Below are positions 4,394 to 33,366 of a stretch of DNA of 64,000 nt, one piece after another (position 1 is the first letter of the stretch; each line of letters starts with the position of its first letter). The notes below the pieces were generated by a model. It saw only the letters and a list, made by a program, of their open reading frames with translations. It did not search any database and was not told where the DNA came from. The stretch lies in IMG/VR virus record IMGVR_UViG_3300033148_007030, positions 1-64,000 of that record; one strand, given 5' to 3'. The position numbers and the translations under genes were made by a program. Source of the DNA: a virus.

Positions 4394-4473
4394 CCCTACC
4401 CTACCAAACCCTACCATACCACGCCTCACCTCACCTCACCGCACCATACCTAACCACACCTTACCGTACCCCA
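4394..4473 (-). repeat. Orphan (GGY-NN)16 pentamer array, candidate guide RNA
   Basis: 16 consecutive ccNNr pentamers on + strand, from cccta 4394 to cccca 4473; intergenic. Confidence 0.85.
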
Positions 4474-17129: not shown

Positions 17130-17405
17130 CTATACATTATAATAGTACGGGGCCAGCTCTCCCATAGTAAATAAATTGGCAGATATTCTCCTTCTGACAG
17201 TAATTGGTTCTGATTTCAATATCTTGTATATTGGAAAGATAAGATCATATTTTGGGTCATTAAAATTTGTCTTTTTAAGATCTCTAAAAAACTGAACATA
17301 TGACCACATATCTTCATTATTTTCTGGCTGAAGGTCAATTGTTGGGATTATGCCCCCCGGTCTTTCAAGTGGCACTATTTTGATTTTCATTTGCTTCCTC
17401 CTCAA
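17130..17405 (-). CDS. Hypothetical protein
   Basis: ORF only. Confidence 0.5.
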   Translation of the reverse strand: MRRKQMKIKIVPLERPGGIIPTIDLQPENNEDMWSYVQFFRDLKKTNFNDPKYDLIFPIYKILKSEPITVRRRISANLFTMGELAPYYYNV

Positions 17406-17456
17406 TTAGTTAAACTAATTAATAATTCTCAAAATCTTTCCTTTGTTTTAAAATAA

Positions 17457-17620
17457 CCTTGCCATACCGCGCCTTACCAGACCTAACCTTGCCTCACCGA
17501 ACCTCACCTGCCTTGCCTTACTACGCCTTGCCCTACCTGACCGGACCGTGCCGTACCTTGCCTGCCTTGCCTTACCGAACCGGACCAAGCCCTACCACGC
17601 CCCGCCTGCGCAGCCACGCC
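17457..17620 (-). repeat. (GGY-NN)n array B: three units of 8, 10 and 10 pentamers punctuated by GGCA
   Basis: ccNNr pentamers on +; cctg tetramers at 17507, 17561, 17605. Confidence 0.9.
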
Positions 17621-17641
17621 AGTCCGTGAGACTGTATAAAG

Positions 17642-18127
17642 CTATACTATTTCATCCATTGCCGCAAACACCTTTGCAAGAGCAGCCAAAGAACCGTACT
17701 TTCGTCTAAATATATCCATATCCTTTTTAGCCTCATCCAACATCTGCCGGGTCAAATCCTCATCAGATAGAATATCAAGTACTTCTCTATACCCACGAAC
17801 ATCTTCAGCTTTCCTATCTTTAGTAAGAGACATAAATGTTCTTACTTTCTTTTTTGACTTTCCTTCCCCAATAACTATCAATTCCATTCTAATAATCTGT
17901 CTTGCTTGCCATATCCTATGCTGTTCCGCTGCTAAAGTGTTATCCCATTCGAATTTTGAATGTAAAACCGTATCTGGATTACGGGCAAACTCGACAACCT
18001 TTACAGGATCAAGCAACCCTCTATTCTGTTCCTTGACAAATAAAAGTTCCTTAGTAACTGTCATCTCCTCAACAATTGGCTCTTCTGATATTTCCATTGC
18101 CACTGCTACTGTATTATTTGCTTTCAT
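17642..18127 (-). CDS. Protein of unknown function coupled to the Cas7-like gene
   Basis: SD GGAGGAG; overlaps the end of 18114-18764; GLLDPVKVVEFARNPDTVLHSKFEWDNTLAAEQHRIWQARQII. Confidence 0.75.
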   Translation of the reverse strand: MKANNTVAVAMEISEEPIVEEMTVTKELLFVKEQNRGLLDPVKVVEFARNPDTVLHSKFEWDNTLAAEQHRIWQARQIIRMELIVIGEGKSKKKVRTFMSLTKDRKAEDVRGYREVLDILSDEDLTRQMLDEAKKDMDIFRRKYGSLAALAKVFAAMDEIV

Positions 18128-18764
18128 GGATCTCTCCTCCCTTAACCTCAAATAATCCCCATCCCATACCAACGCTTTTCTTACTATCAGGACGGCCTTC
18201 TCCTATACCAACTTGCATTCCTACTCTATATAACAAATTATAAATATCATCAATTGTAAATTGATCAGCATCCCAGCGAATCTTTACCTTTGCCGACCAA
18301 TTATGATACGCAGCTCTCACTGTAACATACGGTTGACCTGTTTCCACCCTTGCCATATCTTCCTGCTTTACTGGTTTCCCATATATACGAATTAATGGAA
18401 TCTGAGGTTCTTTTGCATCCCATCCATCGGGAACCACAAAGATACTTAACTTAGCCAATGTCATCTTAAAGCCTACTAATCGACAGGCAGAAATCATTGC
18501 TGCGCGAATTGATGTTGCGTTAAATCCATCCCAATTTTCTGCTGATATATACCTGGATTGTTGGTAAGACTCATCAGTAGATTTAGGTTCCCGATTTTTC
18601 TTACTAGAAGCGGCCTTACCAGTTTCCATCTTCAATTTCATTTCTGCTTTTGTCTTCGCAGAAAATCTATGGATAACTAACGGCGCTTCCCCAATAACCT
18701 CAAAAATTGCCGTTTGAAACTTTGGTGCTGAAATTGTTACAGTCTTTTTTTGTTCAGTAGCCAT
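18114..18764 (-). CDS. Stand-alone Cas7/RAMP-like RNA-binding protein (candidate Vipr)
   Basis: First strand FEVIGEAPLVIH, helix ATSIRAAMISA, thumb ending in R-A-A-Y-H-N-W-S, C-terminal G-rich loop VGIGEGRPD....GMGWGLFEV. Confidence 0.75.
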   Translation of the reverse strand: MATEQKKTVTISAPKFQTAIFEVIGEAPLVIHRFSAKTKAEMKLKMETGKAASSKKNREPKSTDESYQQSRYISAENWDGFNATSIRAAMISACRLVGFKMTLAKLSIFVVPDGWDAKEPQIPLIRIYGKPVKQEDMARVETGQPYVTVRAAYHNWSAKVKIRWDADQFTIDDIYNLLYRVGMQVGIGEGRPDSKKSVGMGWGLFEVKGGEIHESK

Positions 18765-18866
18765 AATAGCTCCTTTCTTGTGTGTTCTCCAATGGAGATG
18801 TTAAAAATTAATGTTTATTACCGCCTTTTACCAAATTTATTTTTACCGCACCACCTCCTTTTTATT

Positions 18867-19185
18867 CCAAGCCTGCCTTGCCTTACCTGACCTGACCTCA
18901 CCACACCGCGCCATATCACACCTCACCTGCCATGCCAAACCGCGCCCTACCCCGTCATACCTGACCGTACCACACCATGCCTGCCTTACTACACCTCACC
19001 GCGCCTAATCACACCGTGCCGTATCGTACCTGGCCATACCTGCCTTGCCTTACCAAACCCAACCATACCACACCGTACCCCACCTCACCATACCTGCCAA
19101 GCCATATTAAACCATACCTCACCTCATCATACCCCACCTAACCTTACCAAACCATACCATACCTGCTGTACCATACCACACCTCA
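18867..19185 (-). repeat. (GGY-NN)n array A: 4 leading pentamers, then units of 13, 10, 11, 10 and 10 pentamers punctuated by GGCA
   Basis: cctg tetramers on + at 18872, 18926, 18980, 19039, 19093, 19162; starts at the recA stop codon. Confidence 0.92.
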
Positions 19186-20223
19186 AAATCTCTCCTTCTT
19201 CCTCCTTTCAGTTTTAAACTTATCTTCAATTTCGTGCCAAAGATCAATCACTTTCTCCCGTAACTCCTTCTGTAATCCGTTCCTCTCAATAACCCTAACC
19301 ATTTTATCCATAGAAACAAACTCACCTAAATCTGAATCACCATACTTAGTTGCTCCTGTCATGTTTTTCAAGTACTGTAAATTTCCACGGATATCATCAA
19401 TTCCATAAGAAAAAAGAATAAAGATAAGAGCTTCTCGAAATGGATCATCTACAGAACTTTTCCTGATCTGACATAATGATTGAATTCCTACAACCTTCTT
19501 CACTTCTTTTTTACCAATTTTAGTAGTTCTTTCAACTTTGGCTTTCTGGCCAACTCGAATCCTCAAAGAAGCATAAAACGGAATCCCTTTTCCTCCTGGA
19601 GTCACTTCTCCCATATCACCTTGCCGGACTTGATTAGTACAAACAATAAGCCAATTGTTGTTTCTGATAATTCTGGAGGTTTTTCTCAATCCCTCACTGA
19701 ACTCCTTTGCTCTCCTCATTCCCATCTTGTCCTTTCCTTCCATCTCCATATTAGTAGAAAGAGCTGCTAAAGAATCAGTTCCTATCCCATTAATAACATC
19801 CTTCCTTGGCGGATTCCAAGCATATATGTGATCATCAAAAACTTCAGTAACAGTATCAGGTCTGTAGTAATTTTTCTTGTCTATCTCAACCCCATAAATA
19901 CGAGCATACTCTTGATCCAAACGAGCTTCTGGATCAAGAAACTTTACTTCTCCACCATTTGCTTGAATGGATGCACAAATCTCAGCCAATATGGAGGTCT
20001 TCCCAGCACTTGACGGACCAAATATTTCTACTATAATTCCACCAGGAAGACCCCCTTCCCTCTTTCTACCCCCGGATATTTCAAGGTCAAGTACAGTAGA
20101 TCCAGTAGAAACCGTTTGCTCTAACCTAACAGTTTTCACCTTTTCTATCGGAGAATCCGTGACCTTTTGTATCTGTCTTGCCAACTGCTTTGTGCTTTTC
20201 GTTCGCCTTAATAACGTGGCCAT
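19183..20223 (-). CDS. recA: RecA/UvsX-like recombinase
   Basis: VSTGSTVLD, EIFGPSSAGKT, DSLAAL, NQVR, TPGGKGIPFYASLRI. Confidence 0.92.
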   Translation of the reverse strand: MATLLRRTKSTKQLARQIQKVTDSPIEKVKTVRLEQTVSTGSTVLDLEISGGRKREGGLPGGIIVEIFGPSSAGKTSILAEICASIQANGGEVKFLDPEARLDQEYARIYGVEIDKKNYYRPDTVTEVFDDHIYAWNPPRKDVINGIGTDSLAALSTNMEMEGKDKMGMRRAKEFSEGLRKTSRIIRNNNWLIVCTNQVRQGDMGEVTPGGKGIPFYASLRIRVGQKAKVERTTKIGKKEVKKVVGIQSLCQIRKSSVDDPFREALIFILFSYGIDDIRGNLQYLKNMTGATKYGDSDLGEFVSMDKMVRVIERNGLQKELREKVIDLWHEIEDKFKTERRKKERF

Positions 20224-31947: not shown

Positions 31948-32685
31948 TCACTTCACAAGAGTATAAATACCTTCTTTATCAACCCTTACAACTTTCAAGA
32001 TCAATAAGGAAGGAAGAACATAACCTAACAAAGCCTTAGCAACTTGAGGATTATCTGAACCTCCATTTTTAATATAAAGCTTATTAGCCTGTTTTATAAG
32101 TTCCTTTTTATTACCACCTTTGCTAAAAGAAGCAATCAGGGCATCAGATCGGGTATACTTTGTTGTTTTCTCTTCTTTCTTTATTAATTTCTCAGGTTCC
32201 TTTTCTGTTTTCTTTTTTTCCTTTTTTTTACCTTTTGGTTTTTCCACCTTTTTCTGTTTTTCTACTTCCTCATCAACTTCACTTTCCTCTTCCATTACCT
32301 CTTCCTCCTCAACTACCTCTTCTTCAACCTCTTCTACCTCCTCTGCCCCCTCTTCAACTTCTATTTCTTCAACCTCTTCTACCTCCTCTTTCCCTTCAAC
32401 CTCTTCTACCTCCTCTTTCCCTTCAACCTCTTCTTCCTCTACTTCCTCCTCAACTTCCTCCGACGCTTCATCAGAAATAAGATCATTGTACATCAAAATA
32501 ACCTTTTCTGGAAGTTTGGTGGCTTTATCTTCATCCAGGGATTCCACGGCCTCAACTAATTCATCCATCATGTCATCTGTGGTTTTACCTTTTATGACAA
32601 CAGCTTTCTCTACTAATTTAGCTCCATTCAAAGAAGCAATTGCCTCCCTCAATTTTTTTACATCTACATCGTTTGCATCTTTCAT
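31948..32685 (-). CDS. Protein with Glu/Val-rich acidic repeat and Lys-rich segment
   Basis: EEVEGKEEV tandem repeats. Confidence 0.7.
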   Translation of the reverse strand: MKDANDVDVKKLREAIASLNGAKLVEKAVVIKGKTTDDMMDELVEAVESLDEDKATKLPEKVILMYNDLISDEASEEVEEEVEEEEVEGKEEVEEVEGKEEVEEVEEIEVEEGAEEVEEVEEEVVEEEEVMEEESEVDEEVEKQKKVEKPKGKKKEKKKTEKEPEKLIKKEEKTTKYTRSDALIASFSKGGNKKELIKQANKLYIKNGGSDNPQVAKALLGYVLPSLLILKVVRVDKEGIYTLVK

Positions 32686-32715
32686 TTTCTATACTCTCCT
32701 TTTAAAATTAATGTT

Positions 32716-33366
32716 TTACTTTTCTTCTACTAAATTCAAAACCTTATGTAATTGTACGTTTAAAATAGCATCATACGCCTCCTCTCTCATTAGCCAGTTA
32801 ATTAATGTATTTGCATCCATAACACCATGCATCGGTGAGAATGCGAACTTTGCCTGATAAGACTCTTTACTTTGCAAAATCTTTTTTATTGCTATAGCTT
32901 CATTAAAATCTTCCCTATCCTGAATTACAAACTTAATAAAATCAGTTGATTTGAGTCCTTCAAATATATCTATATTCATTTTATGAGATTCTCCAGAACT
33001 AGGTAACTTCCAATCTACCACCCAACTTCCAACACCATACCCATATAAAGGAAATGAGCCGTTCGTTTCAATAGATATTTCATAAGCATCTTTCCACAAT
33101 AATCTTGTTAATTCGAATAATGCGTCTTGTTGCAATAGGGGCTCTCCTCCGGTAATTGTAATCTTTCTGATTCCTATTGTTTTTACCTTTTCCATAACTT
33201 CAGCAGGAGTCATTTCTGTCCCTGAATTTATATCTAACGCATACTTGGTGTCGCAGTAGGAGCACCGACAATTACAACCAGAAAATCTTATGAATGTAGT
33301 TAATCTACCTTGGTGGTATAAATCAACTTCTCCTGATATTGATGGGAAAATGCTGTATATTTTCAT
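32716..33366 (-). CDS. queE: 7-carboxy-7-deazaguanine synthase
   Basis: IFPSISGE, FIRFSGCNCRCSYCDT, TGGEPLLQ, IETNG, QLHK. Confidence 0.9.
   Translation of the reverse strand: MKIYSIFPSISGEVDLYHQGRLTTFIRFSGCNCRCSYCDTKYALDINSGTEMTPAEVMEKVKTIGIRKITITGGEPLLQQDALFELTRLLWKDAYEISIETNGSFPLYGYGVGSWVVDWKLPSSGESHKMNIDIFEGLKSTDFIKFVIQDREDFNEAIAIKKILQSKESYQAKFAFSPMHGVMDANTLINWLMREEAYDAILNVQLHKVLNLVEEK

What the first reader, a model, noticed from the sequence alone, without database searches (positions are those of the whole stretch)
18867..19185. Second-level punctuation cuts the arrays into ~54-nt guide-sized units
Seen: a 4-nt GGCA unit breaks the pentamer phase at 18872, 18926, 18980, 19039, 19093, 19162 and at 17507, 17561, 17605. 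The resulting units have 13, 10, 11, 10, 10 (A) and 8, 10, 10 (B) pentamers; five of eight have exactly 10. The junction TAAGGCAAGGCAGG recurs exactly four times (17507-17520, 17561-17574, 18872-18885, 19039-19052), while the internal NNs are unique to each unit. Inference: a multiplexed array of about eight guides in which the phase break sets filament length or marks a processing site. A slippage microsatellite would not be expected to show this.
Basis: partly seen in the sequence, partly recalled or inferred. Interest (0 to 1): 0.82.

Follow-up and report, generated by a model that had tools for sequence, protein, structure and literature searches.

The report
Staggered VIPR guide-RNA arrays in phage
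The one-base "hiccups" in the five-base repeat are real and mark the borders between eight back-to-back guide RNAs of a phage VIPR system, a CRISPR-related DNA silencer first described in 2026. This layout is already published, so it is a good new example of a known kind, and one guide spells a conserved motif of a candidate anti-phage defence gene of gut Clostridia.

Summary
On the minus (gene) strand, arrays A (19184-18875) and B (17622-17456) are NNGGY pentamers. They are broken only by 4-nt steps at the nine stated places, always as GGC-A-GGY. This gives units of 69, 54, 59, 54, 54 nt in A and 44, 54, 54 nt in B.

The rule holds across the family. In 14 related viral loci, 78 of 79 phase changes are the same -1 step with a GC-A-GG core. 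Cyanophage Cy-LDV1 and Mycobacterium phage Brocalys show it too.

The 216-aa gene between the arrays is a Vipr protein: it hits the solved SUSP1 Vipr by sequence profile and has a Cas7-like fold.

The layout matches the "staggered vrRNA arrays" of bioRxiv 10.64898/2026.04.26.720920 (fig. S18 legend: neighbouring guides overlap by 1 nt). This scan has also reported the same thing on other DNA.

One new piece of support came from decoding with the published 1-nt-skip rule. Unit A5 matches 20 of 20 letters, in frame, in an ATPase_2+DUF234 (PADLOC PDC-S27) gene. There were 49 exact genome hits against about 1 expected, and 43 fall in that family. The match stops exactly at the unit's borders.

RNA cleavage at the break was not tested. 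Verdict: real, a new member of a known kind.

The parts
19165..19184 (-). Array A leader: four pentamers (the last degenerate, ACAGC) that start inside the uvsX stop codon and come before the first junction
19096..19164 (-). Guide unit A1, 69 nt: A-GGT followed by 13 NNGGY
19042..19095 (-). Guide unit A2, 54 nt, 10 NN
18983..19041 (-). Guide unit A3, 59 nt, 11 NN
18929..18982 (-). Guide unit A4, 54 nt, 10 NN
18875..18928 (-). Guide unit A5, 54 nt, 10 NN (GA GT AT GC GT GA CA CA AA AA). It matches the DVMAVDHQ(N/K)K codons of ATPase_2+DUF234 / PDC-S27 genes
18866..18874 (-). Terminal junction and stub (A-GGC-TT-GGA). About 100 nt of 5' UTR of vipr follow it
18114..18764 (-). vipr, 216 aa, a Cas7-like RAMP
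   Evidence: Profile hit to PDB 36pp_D 'SUSP1 Vipr protein', E=1.1e-5, with R150 aligned to SUSP1 R138 and the G-loop aligned. AF2 model pLDDT 74.6. Top Foldseek hits are Cmr4, Csm3 and Cas7-11. Matches phrog_4652.
17642..18127 (-). vap-like accessory gene, 161 aa from the ATG at 18127 (ORF listed from 18172). It overlaps the vipr stop codon
   Evidence: Matches phrog_15946. Conserved next to vipr in 12 relatives. The model has a weak winged-helix-like core only.
17608..17622 (-). Array B leader: three pentamers, the last degenerate (TGCGC)
17564..17607 (-). Guide unit B1, 44 nt, 8 NN
17510..17563 (-). Guide unit B2, 54 nt, 10 NN
17456..17509 (-). Guide unit B3, 54 nt, 10 NN. It ends without a junction, before a T-rich stretch
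4398..4472 (-). Array C: 15 unbroken NNGGY pentamers with no junction, 13 kb from vipr. Probably a single guide

Best explanation
Arrays A and B are 'staggered' vrRNA arrays of a VIPR system, that is, a Vipr RAMP protein, a vap accessory protein and GGY/NN guide RNAs.

They lie on the gene strand inside the uvsX - array A - vipr - vap - array B stretch. No promoter-like or terminator-like signal above background lies within or beside the arrays, so I infer they are made as part of one long transcript.

From the published SUSP1 structures, one Vipr protomer binds each GGY and presents the NN dinucleotide. The NNs read DNA with one skipped base per step.

At each GGC-A-GGY junction only one base instead of two separates consecutive GGY motifs. 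I infer that this one-base loss of register ends one Vipr filament and starts the next. I also infer that the precursor is cut at or next to this site, giving 44-69-nt guides of the form A-GGY-(NN-GGY)n.

Shown here:
- the junction rule holds across the family;
- the protein is a Vipr;
- guide A5 matches a target over exactly one unit.

Inferred, not shown:
- co-transcription;
- the filament break;
- cleavage, and which nuclease does it.

A5's match suggests that this phage uses at least one guide to silence an ATPase_2+DUF234 (PDC-S27) candidate defence gene found in many gut Clostridia.
For: Junctions. There are nine -1 breaks and no other kind in the window. The 14-mer junction word occurs 4 times against 0 expected. 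In 14 IMG/VR relatives, 78 of 79 phase changes are -1. At the junction, C is 89-100% and A is 86-100%, whereas ordinary third positions are 43-69% C. The same layout sits beside the Vipr homologues of Cy-LDV1 and Brocalys.

Unit size. Internal units in relatives hold mostly 9-12 GGY. This is inside the published range of 9-16 repeats per vrRNA.

Guide content. The NN strings turn over completely between relatives. The only similar pairs are paralogous units aligned at offset 0.

Vipr identity.

Target of A5. The 20-letter pattern has 49 exact matches in genome contigs against about 1 expected from database size. Of these, 43 are at one motif of one protein family, in frame, with varying skip bases. 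Two more matches are in viral contigs. The family is ATPase_2+DUF234 and PDC-S27 (E=3e-58). The flanks of the target are conserved (45/45, 43/45, 44/45), yet they do not match the NNs of the neighbouring unit.

Transcription and folding. The promoter and terminator scan is at background. The array RNA has no significant fold, z = -1.8.

Published description of staggered arrays.
Against: No RNA data were available, so neither expression, RNA ends nor cleavage at the junction is shown.

The preprint itself confirmed only the ribozyme-spaced and single-guide layouts by small-RNA sequencing, not the staggered one.

Only one of nine guides has a convincing target. The other eight gave nothing above chance.

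The A5 boundary test rests on one internal junction (A4|A5) and on the end of the array.

If the junction were skipped altogether, A4's last NN (AT) would match the target's -1 codon. The next three would not.

PDC-S27 is a candidate defence family, not a tested one.
Confidence: 0.8

Rival explanations
1. The array is not cut. It works as one long RNA on which the -1 step only resets the register, so several Vipr filaments sit side by side on a single transcript. That transcript may still be joined to the uvsX and vipr-vap messages.
For: No nuclease domain was found in vipr or vap. No ribozyme or other Rfam family lies in the window. The staggered layout was not confirmed by small-RNA sequencing in the preprint.
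Against: The fig. S18 legend speaks of 'individual processed vrRNAs'. The junction core keeps C and A much more strictly than a mere spacing change would need. All characterised vrRNAs are discrete species of about 100 nt.
Confidence: 0.13
2. The GC-A-GG junction is mainly a DNA-level scar or recombination site through which whole guide units are gained, lost or swapped. It has no role of its own in the RNA-protein complex.
For: Guide content is completely different between relatives whose Vipr proteins are 72-86% identical. Whole blocks bounded by junctions are duplicated in L011 and L009. Four of eight units here share the same 14-nt junction word.
Against: A scar would not need to shorten the period by exactly one base in 87 of 88 cases. 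How guides are acquired is unknown for any VIPR system. This reading is compatible with the best explanation rather than exclusive of it.
Confidence: 0.05
3. The tract is a slippage-prone microsatellite or a cryptic coding repeat with no guide function.
For: It is a short-period tandem repeat.
Against: No ORF spans the arrays. The NN positions are hypervariable while GGY and the junctions are fixed. The tract always lies next to a Vipr gene, in phages of 34-65% GC. One unit has a 20/20 in-frame target in 43 species.
Confidence: 0.02

Closest known systems
VIPR systems with 'staggered vrRNA arrays' (bioRxiv 10.64898/2026.04.26.720920, main text and fig. S18 legend)
   Same: A lone Vipr RAMP plus a vap gene, flanked by GGY/NN pentamer arrays. 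Neighbouring guides abut with a 1-nt overlap, which is the same thing as a 4-nt step. There is no structured tail or ribozyme between guides.
   Different: Only the figure legend is held as text, so I could not compare the junction sequence, the unit sizes or the VIPR type. This locus adds the explicit GC-A-GG core, short leaders before the first junction, a third unpunctuated array 13 kb away, and a position inside a T4-like uvsX/gp32/uvsY replication-recombination module.
Type II VIPR of Escherichia phage SUSP1 and the Pseudomonas fulva prophage (same preprint; structures in 10.64898/2026.04.26.720927; PDB 36pp)
   Same: The Vipr fold and key RNA-contact residues (R138 and the G-loop) align. 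vrRNAs lie both upstream and downstream of vipr-vap. Guides have 9-16 repeats. The 1-nt-skip code puts skip bases at codon wobble positions.
   Different: Each SUSP1 vrRNA is about 100 nt and ends in a conserved 3' pseudoknot tail that caps the filament. Here there is no tail, and the guides are separated only by the one-base register break. Sequence similarity of the proteins is low (profile E=1.1e-5 over about 60 residues).
CRISPR arrays and class 1 Cas7 backbones
   Same: Many guides come from one transcript. A RAMP filament binds the guide with a fixed step and flips out bases periodically.
   Different: There are no repeats or spacers, no cas1/cas2, no Cas6 site and no contiguous pairing. 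The punctuation is one missing base rather than a 28-37-nt repeat.
Vipr homologues with the same array layout in GenBank phages: Cyanophage Cy-LDV1 and Mycobacterium phage Brocalys (Cheoctovirus)
   Same: 27-49% identical Vipr proteins. The adjacent arrays have the same -1 GGC-A-GGC junctions.
   Different: These are temperate phages with the cassette near the immunity and excision region. Their arrays are unannotated, or are partly covered by a called CDS (Brocalys gp45).

Membership tests
VIPR system | Vipr protein: a minimal RAMP with an RRM core, a G-loop and a thumb, related to SUSP1 Vipr | tested here: met
   A profile of 12 homologues hits PDB 36pp_D 'SUSP1 Vipr protein' at E=1.1e-5. 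The invariant R150 aligns to R138, and GEGRP aligns to GDWRP. The AF2 model's top Foldseek hits are Cmr4, Csm3 and Cas7-11, E about 1e-5, probability 1.00.
VIPR system | vrRNA genes: tandem GGY/NN (YNNGG) pentamers, at least 4 units, next to vipr on its strand | tested here: met
   More than 85 pentamers in arrays A and B flank vipr-vap on the minus strand. They are the only such arrays in the 98-kb genome apart from array C.
VIPR system | An accessory vap gene next to vipr | tested here: inconclusive
   A conserved 146-188-aa gene follows vipr in 12 of 14 relatives. Its model gives only weak winged-helix-like matches, Z about 5. I could not match it to a named vap1-6 family.
VIPR system | Guides read DNA by the 1-nt-skip rule (NNx), often with the skip base at the codon wobble position | tested here: met
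   Guide A5 matches 20/20 in frame in 43 species' ATPase_2+DUF234 genes, with variable skip bases. There were 49 hits against about 1 expected. This holds for one guide only.
VIPR system | vrRNAs are expressed and bound by Vipr | not testable with these tools
   No sequencing run was listed for this sequence.
Staggered vrRNA array (fig. S18 layout) | Adjacent vrRNAs abut with a 1-nt overlap, so the end of one marks the start of the next, with no tail or ribozyme between them | tested here: met
   All nine junctions are 4-nt steps, equal to pentamers overlapping by 1 nt. No Rfam family, including hammerhead, lies in the window. No conserved tail lies between units.
Staggered vrRNA array (fig. 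S18 layout) | Units are processed into individual vrRNAs at these boundaries | not testable with these tools
   No RNA data were available. The indirect support is that A5's target match is confined to one unit.
Type II VIPR (SUSP1-like) | A conserved 3' tail or pseudoknot after each repeat tract | tested here: not met
   Units follow each other directly. The array RNA has no significant structure, z = -1.8.

The most novel reading that the evidence does not exclude
The GGC-A-GGY junction could be a complete, protein-read punctuation mark. Under this reading the Vipr filament itself senses the missing base and either cuts there or exposes the site to a host RNase. Tail-less guides could then be packed back to back inside an ordinary mRNA. 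This lytic-type gut phage would use such guides as programmable anti-defence, with A5 silencing a PDC-S27 (ATPase_2+DUF234) gene across dozens of species of Clostridia, rather than only to fight rival phages.
Probability: 0.25. Interest if true: 0.6.

Novelty: new member of a known kind. Interest (0 to 1): 0.35.

Why it matters
It gives a clean, well-delimited example of the least-documented VIPR array layout. That layout appears in print only as a supplementary figure and has not been confirmed by small-RNA sequencing.

It provides an explicit junction consensus and a family-wide rule: 87 of 88 breaks are -1.

It also provides a target-based check that the break is a guide border.

Such arrays show how short a separator between guides can be, which is of practical interest for building compact multi-guide constructs.

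The A5 target hints that VIPR guides can be aimed at host defence genes, and it points to gut Clostridia as the host range of an otherwise unplaced 98-kb phage.

Tried and rejected
RNA evidence. The look-up of sequencing runs listed no run for 17400-19300, so none was listed and read laying was not used.

Known RNA families. The Rfam scan of the window found nothing at gathering thresholds.

Self-targeting and cross-targeting. No guide matches the phage's own 98-kb genome better than shuffled guides do. No guide from the window or its relatives matches five relatives' whole contigs better than reversed-guide controls.

Exact 1-nt-skip scans of viral contigs gave 0 hits for A4, A3, C (central 11 NN), A2, B2 and A1 (central 11 NN).

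B3 in metagenome contigs gave 2 hits, about the chance number. One is in frame in an unannotated 855-aa ORF beside an NB-ARC/NACHT gene. I keep it as a lead, not a finding.

B2 in 401 Clostridia genomes with up to 2 mismatches gave 7 hits against 10 for the backwards control.

A2, A3, A4 and B3 were searched in five genomes that carry the A5 target. None matched.

No other window guide hits the 8-kb surroundings of the A5 target. No relatives' guide does either.

vap gave no Pfam family and no Foldseek match with E<=0.001. VIA-align found only weak winged-helix-like similarity.

A coding reading of the arrays was rejected because no ORF spans them. A structured-RNA reading was rejected because the fold z-score is -1.8.

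Full report
**What is there.** All genes in this part of the window lie on the minus strand. They form a T4-like replication and recombination block: clamp loader, UvsY, gp32-like SSB, UvsX and a 5'-3' exonuclease.

Read on that strand, the stretch after the uvsX stop codon (array A) and the stretch after the 161/176-aa gene (array B) are runs of NNGGY pentamers. The distance between successive GG dinucleotides is 5, or 10 where one pentamer is degenerate. The exceptions are nine places where it is 4 (or 9). These are before the GG at 19163, 19094, 19040, 18981, 18927 and 18873, and before 17606, 17562 and 17508.

A phase-tracking parse shows that each break shifts the phase by -1 and never by any other amount. 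The resulting units are:
- array A: 69, 54, 59, 54 and 54 nt;
- array B: 44, 54 and 54 nt.

Each unit has the form A-GGY-(NN-GGY)n and ends in GGC. The 14-mer TAAGGCAAGGCAGG occurs exactly four times, with none expected. Each array begins with a short leader of three or four pentamers before its first junction. Array A ends with a junction and a stub.

The whole record is a single 98,002-bp phage contig of 36% GC with a near-repeat at its ends. It holds only one further array, C (4472-4398), which has 15 pentamers and no break.

**What it is.** VIPR systems (bioRxiv 10.64898/2026.04.26.720920) consist of a minimal RAMP protein (Vipr), an accessory gene (vap) and vrRNAs of 9-16 YNNGG repeats. 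The GGY motif is held by the protein, and the NN dinucleotides read double-stranded DNA with one skipped base per step.

I tested membership rather than assuming it. A profile of the 216-aa protein and 11 homologues hits the solved SUSP1 Vipr protein (PDB 36pp_D, E=1.1e-5). The invariant R150 aligns to the thumb arginine R138, and the G-loop also aligns. The AlphaFold model (pLDDT 74.6) finds Cmr4, Csm3 and Cas7-11 as its best structural matches.

The downstream gene is conserved next to vipr in relatives. It shows only a weak winged-helix-like core. This would fit the DNA-binding vap proteins described for some types, but it does not prove the point.

**Is the punctuation a family feature?** Fourteen related loci from IMG/VR carry Vipr proteins 43-86% identical to this one. 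Across them, 78 of 79 phase changes between adjacent array segments are -1. The remaining one is -2.

At the junction the base after GG is C in 89% of relatives and 100% in the window. At ordinary positions it is C in 43-69%. The single intervening base is A in 86% of relatives and 100% in the window. The GC-A-GG core is kept even where the last GGC has decayed to TGC or AGC.

Internal units hold mostly 9-12 GGY, within the published guide size. The relatives' genomes range from 34% to 65% GC, so the cassette moves between very different phages while keeping this grammar.

Two GenBank phages have the same GGC-A-GGC staggered arrays beside their Vipr homologues. They are Cyanophage Cy-LDV1 (49% identical Vipr) and Mycobacterium phage Brocalys (28%).

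One close relative, L003, has only a degenerate array rich in GGA and GTT. My parser missed it, but it still shows a TGC-A-GGC junction.

**Are the units separate guides?** The NN strings are essentially unique. Among 3,828 unit pairs only a few exceed the shuffled null. The clear ones are paralogous units within one locus (L004 units 1 and 4; L005 at 611 and 1993), and they align at offset 0, that is, anchored on the junction. Whole junction-bounded blocks are duplicated in L011 and L009.

I then decoded the window's guides with the 1-nt-skip rule and looked for targets. There is no self-match and no match in five relatives' full contigs.

Guide A5 gave the one clear result:
- Searched with nine NN in viral contigs, it gave four hits. 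Two of them, L033 and L035, lie in homologous genes, are in frame and also match the tenth NN.
- The full 20-letter pattern gave 49 exact matches in one-genome-per-species bacterial contigs. About one is expected from the size of the collection (596 billion bases, two strands, 4^20; my arithmetic).
- Of the 49, 43 lie at the same place in the same protein family, spelling DVMAVDHQ(N/K)K just upstream of a GECKY motif. The six others look like background.
- The hosts are gut Clostridia, including Pseudoflavonifractor, Intestinimonas, Lawsonibacter, Marvinbryantia, Blautia, Eisenbergiella and many Lachnospiraceae and Oscillospiraceae MAGs.
- The gene encodes an ATPase_2 + DUF234 protein and matches the PADLOC candidate defence family PDC-S27 at E=3e-58. 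Its neighbours differ from genome to genome: a serine recombinase, a cytosine methylase, ParB, a pilus gene.
- The skipped bases vary freely among the hits, as the code predicts.

**The boundary test.** In the 45 family hits the codons flanking the match are as conserved as the matched ones. The prefixes are -1 AT in 45/45, -2 GA in 43/45, -3 AC in 44/45, and +3 TT, +4 GC and +5 GG in 45/45. A longer guide could therefore have covered them.

It does not. The last NNs of the upstream unit A4 (GC, TT, AT) fail to continue the match if the junction counts as a step. If the junction is skipped, only the single AT fits and the next three do not. The junction A lies opposite a T. Downstream of A5 there is only the terminal stub.

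So the match covers exactly the ten NN between two junctions.

[quoted passage not shown] In GGYNN framing, the last pentamer of a unit (GGC-A-G) shares its final G with the first pentamer of the next unit. That is the same thing as a 4-nt step.

The authors state that the ribozyme-spaced and single-guide layouts were confirmed by small-RNA sequencing. The staggered one is not in that statement. The structural paper and the October 2026 paper do not treat it. In the SUSP1 type a 3' pseudoknot caps each guide. Here nothing of that kind lies between units.

This scan has also reported the same GGCA, 5n+4 punctuation on other DNA: e1-5929049, e1-5747916, e1-5998737 and e1-6026429. The finding is therefore a new member of a known kind.

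**How it most likely works.** The arrays start inside the uvsX stop codon and run up to the vipr 5' UTR. There is no promoter-like or terminator-like signal above background and no stable fold. I therefore infer one precursor transcript.

In the published structure two adjacent protomers share each GGY, and the NN pair spans the gap between them. A junction with one N instead of two should not fit that geometry. I infer that it ends a filament and leaves an exposed site where the RNA is cut. The nuclease is unknown, and neither vipr nor vap shows a nuclease domain.

The unprocessed alternative, several filaments on one RNA, cannot be excluded without RNA data, and none was listed.

**Limits.** Eight of the nine guides have no convincing target. 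PDC-S27 is an untested candidate family. I could not see fig. S18 itself or assign a VIPR type.

Noticed in passing
window 18875-18928 (guide A5); targets in L033:241-1755, L035:12868-14130, L036-L084: Guide A5 spells, 20 of 20 letters and in frame, the DVMAVDHQ(N/K)K codons of ATPase_2+DUF234 (PADLOC PDC-S27) genes in at least 43 species of gut Clostridia. This suggests that the phage infects such hosts and that it silences a candidate defence gene.
   Followed up: yes
window 4398-4472 (-): A third array of 15 unbroken pentamers with no junction lies 13 kb from vipr. It is probably a single guide whose ends must be set in some other way. The central 11 NN gave no exact target in viral contigs.
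   Followed up: partly
L093:2593-5160 (-), metagenome contig Ga0105044_10036608: Guide B3 has one exact in-frame 20/20 match (DSEKYLNAIK) in an unannotated 855-aa ORF next to an NB-ARC/NACHT NTPase gene. The number of hits (2) is about what chance gives.
   Followed up: partly
window arrays A and B: Units A1-A4 all begin with the NN pair AT, which could be start codons of target genes. Four of eight units end in AA-AA. In A5 these AA-AA letters are true target letters (Asn/Lys-Lys codons), so the recurring 14-mer junction word is partly guide content.
   Followed up: partly
L004:4078-4322; L005:611-653 and 1993-2040: Some relatives carry paralogous guides that differ at a few whole NN pairs. 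They look like variants aimed at alleles of one target.
   Followed up: no
L003:2790-2950: The relative with 81% identical Vipr has only a decayed array with many GGA, GTT and GTA in place of GGY, but it still has a TGC-A-GGC junction. A -35/-10-like TTGACA box lies just upstream.
   Followed up: no
L095 (Mycobacterium phage Brocalys, NC_031262.1 about 32516-32752): The annotated CDS gp45 starts inside the pentamer array, so its 5' end is probably miscalled. The array itself is unannotated in this and in the Cy-LDV1 record.
   Followed up: no
G001-G005 (contigs behind L002, L006, L007, L004, L012): The same vipr-vap-array cassette sits in phage genomes of 34% to 65% GC and 47-77 kb. This implies wide horizontal movement of the cassette.
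   Followed up: partly
G000:C1 ends (1-50 and 97950-98002): The contig's last roughly 50 bases repeat its first bases with one mismatch. This suggests a complete, circularly permuted or terminally redundant genome of about 97.95 kb.
   Followed up: no
This is probably a coincidence with the acceptor-stem sequence.
   Followed up: no
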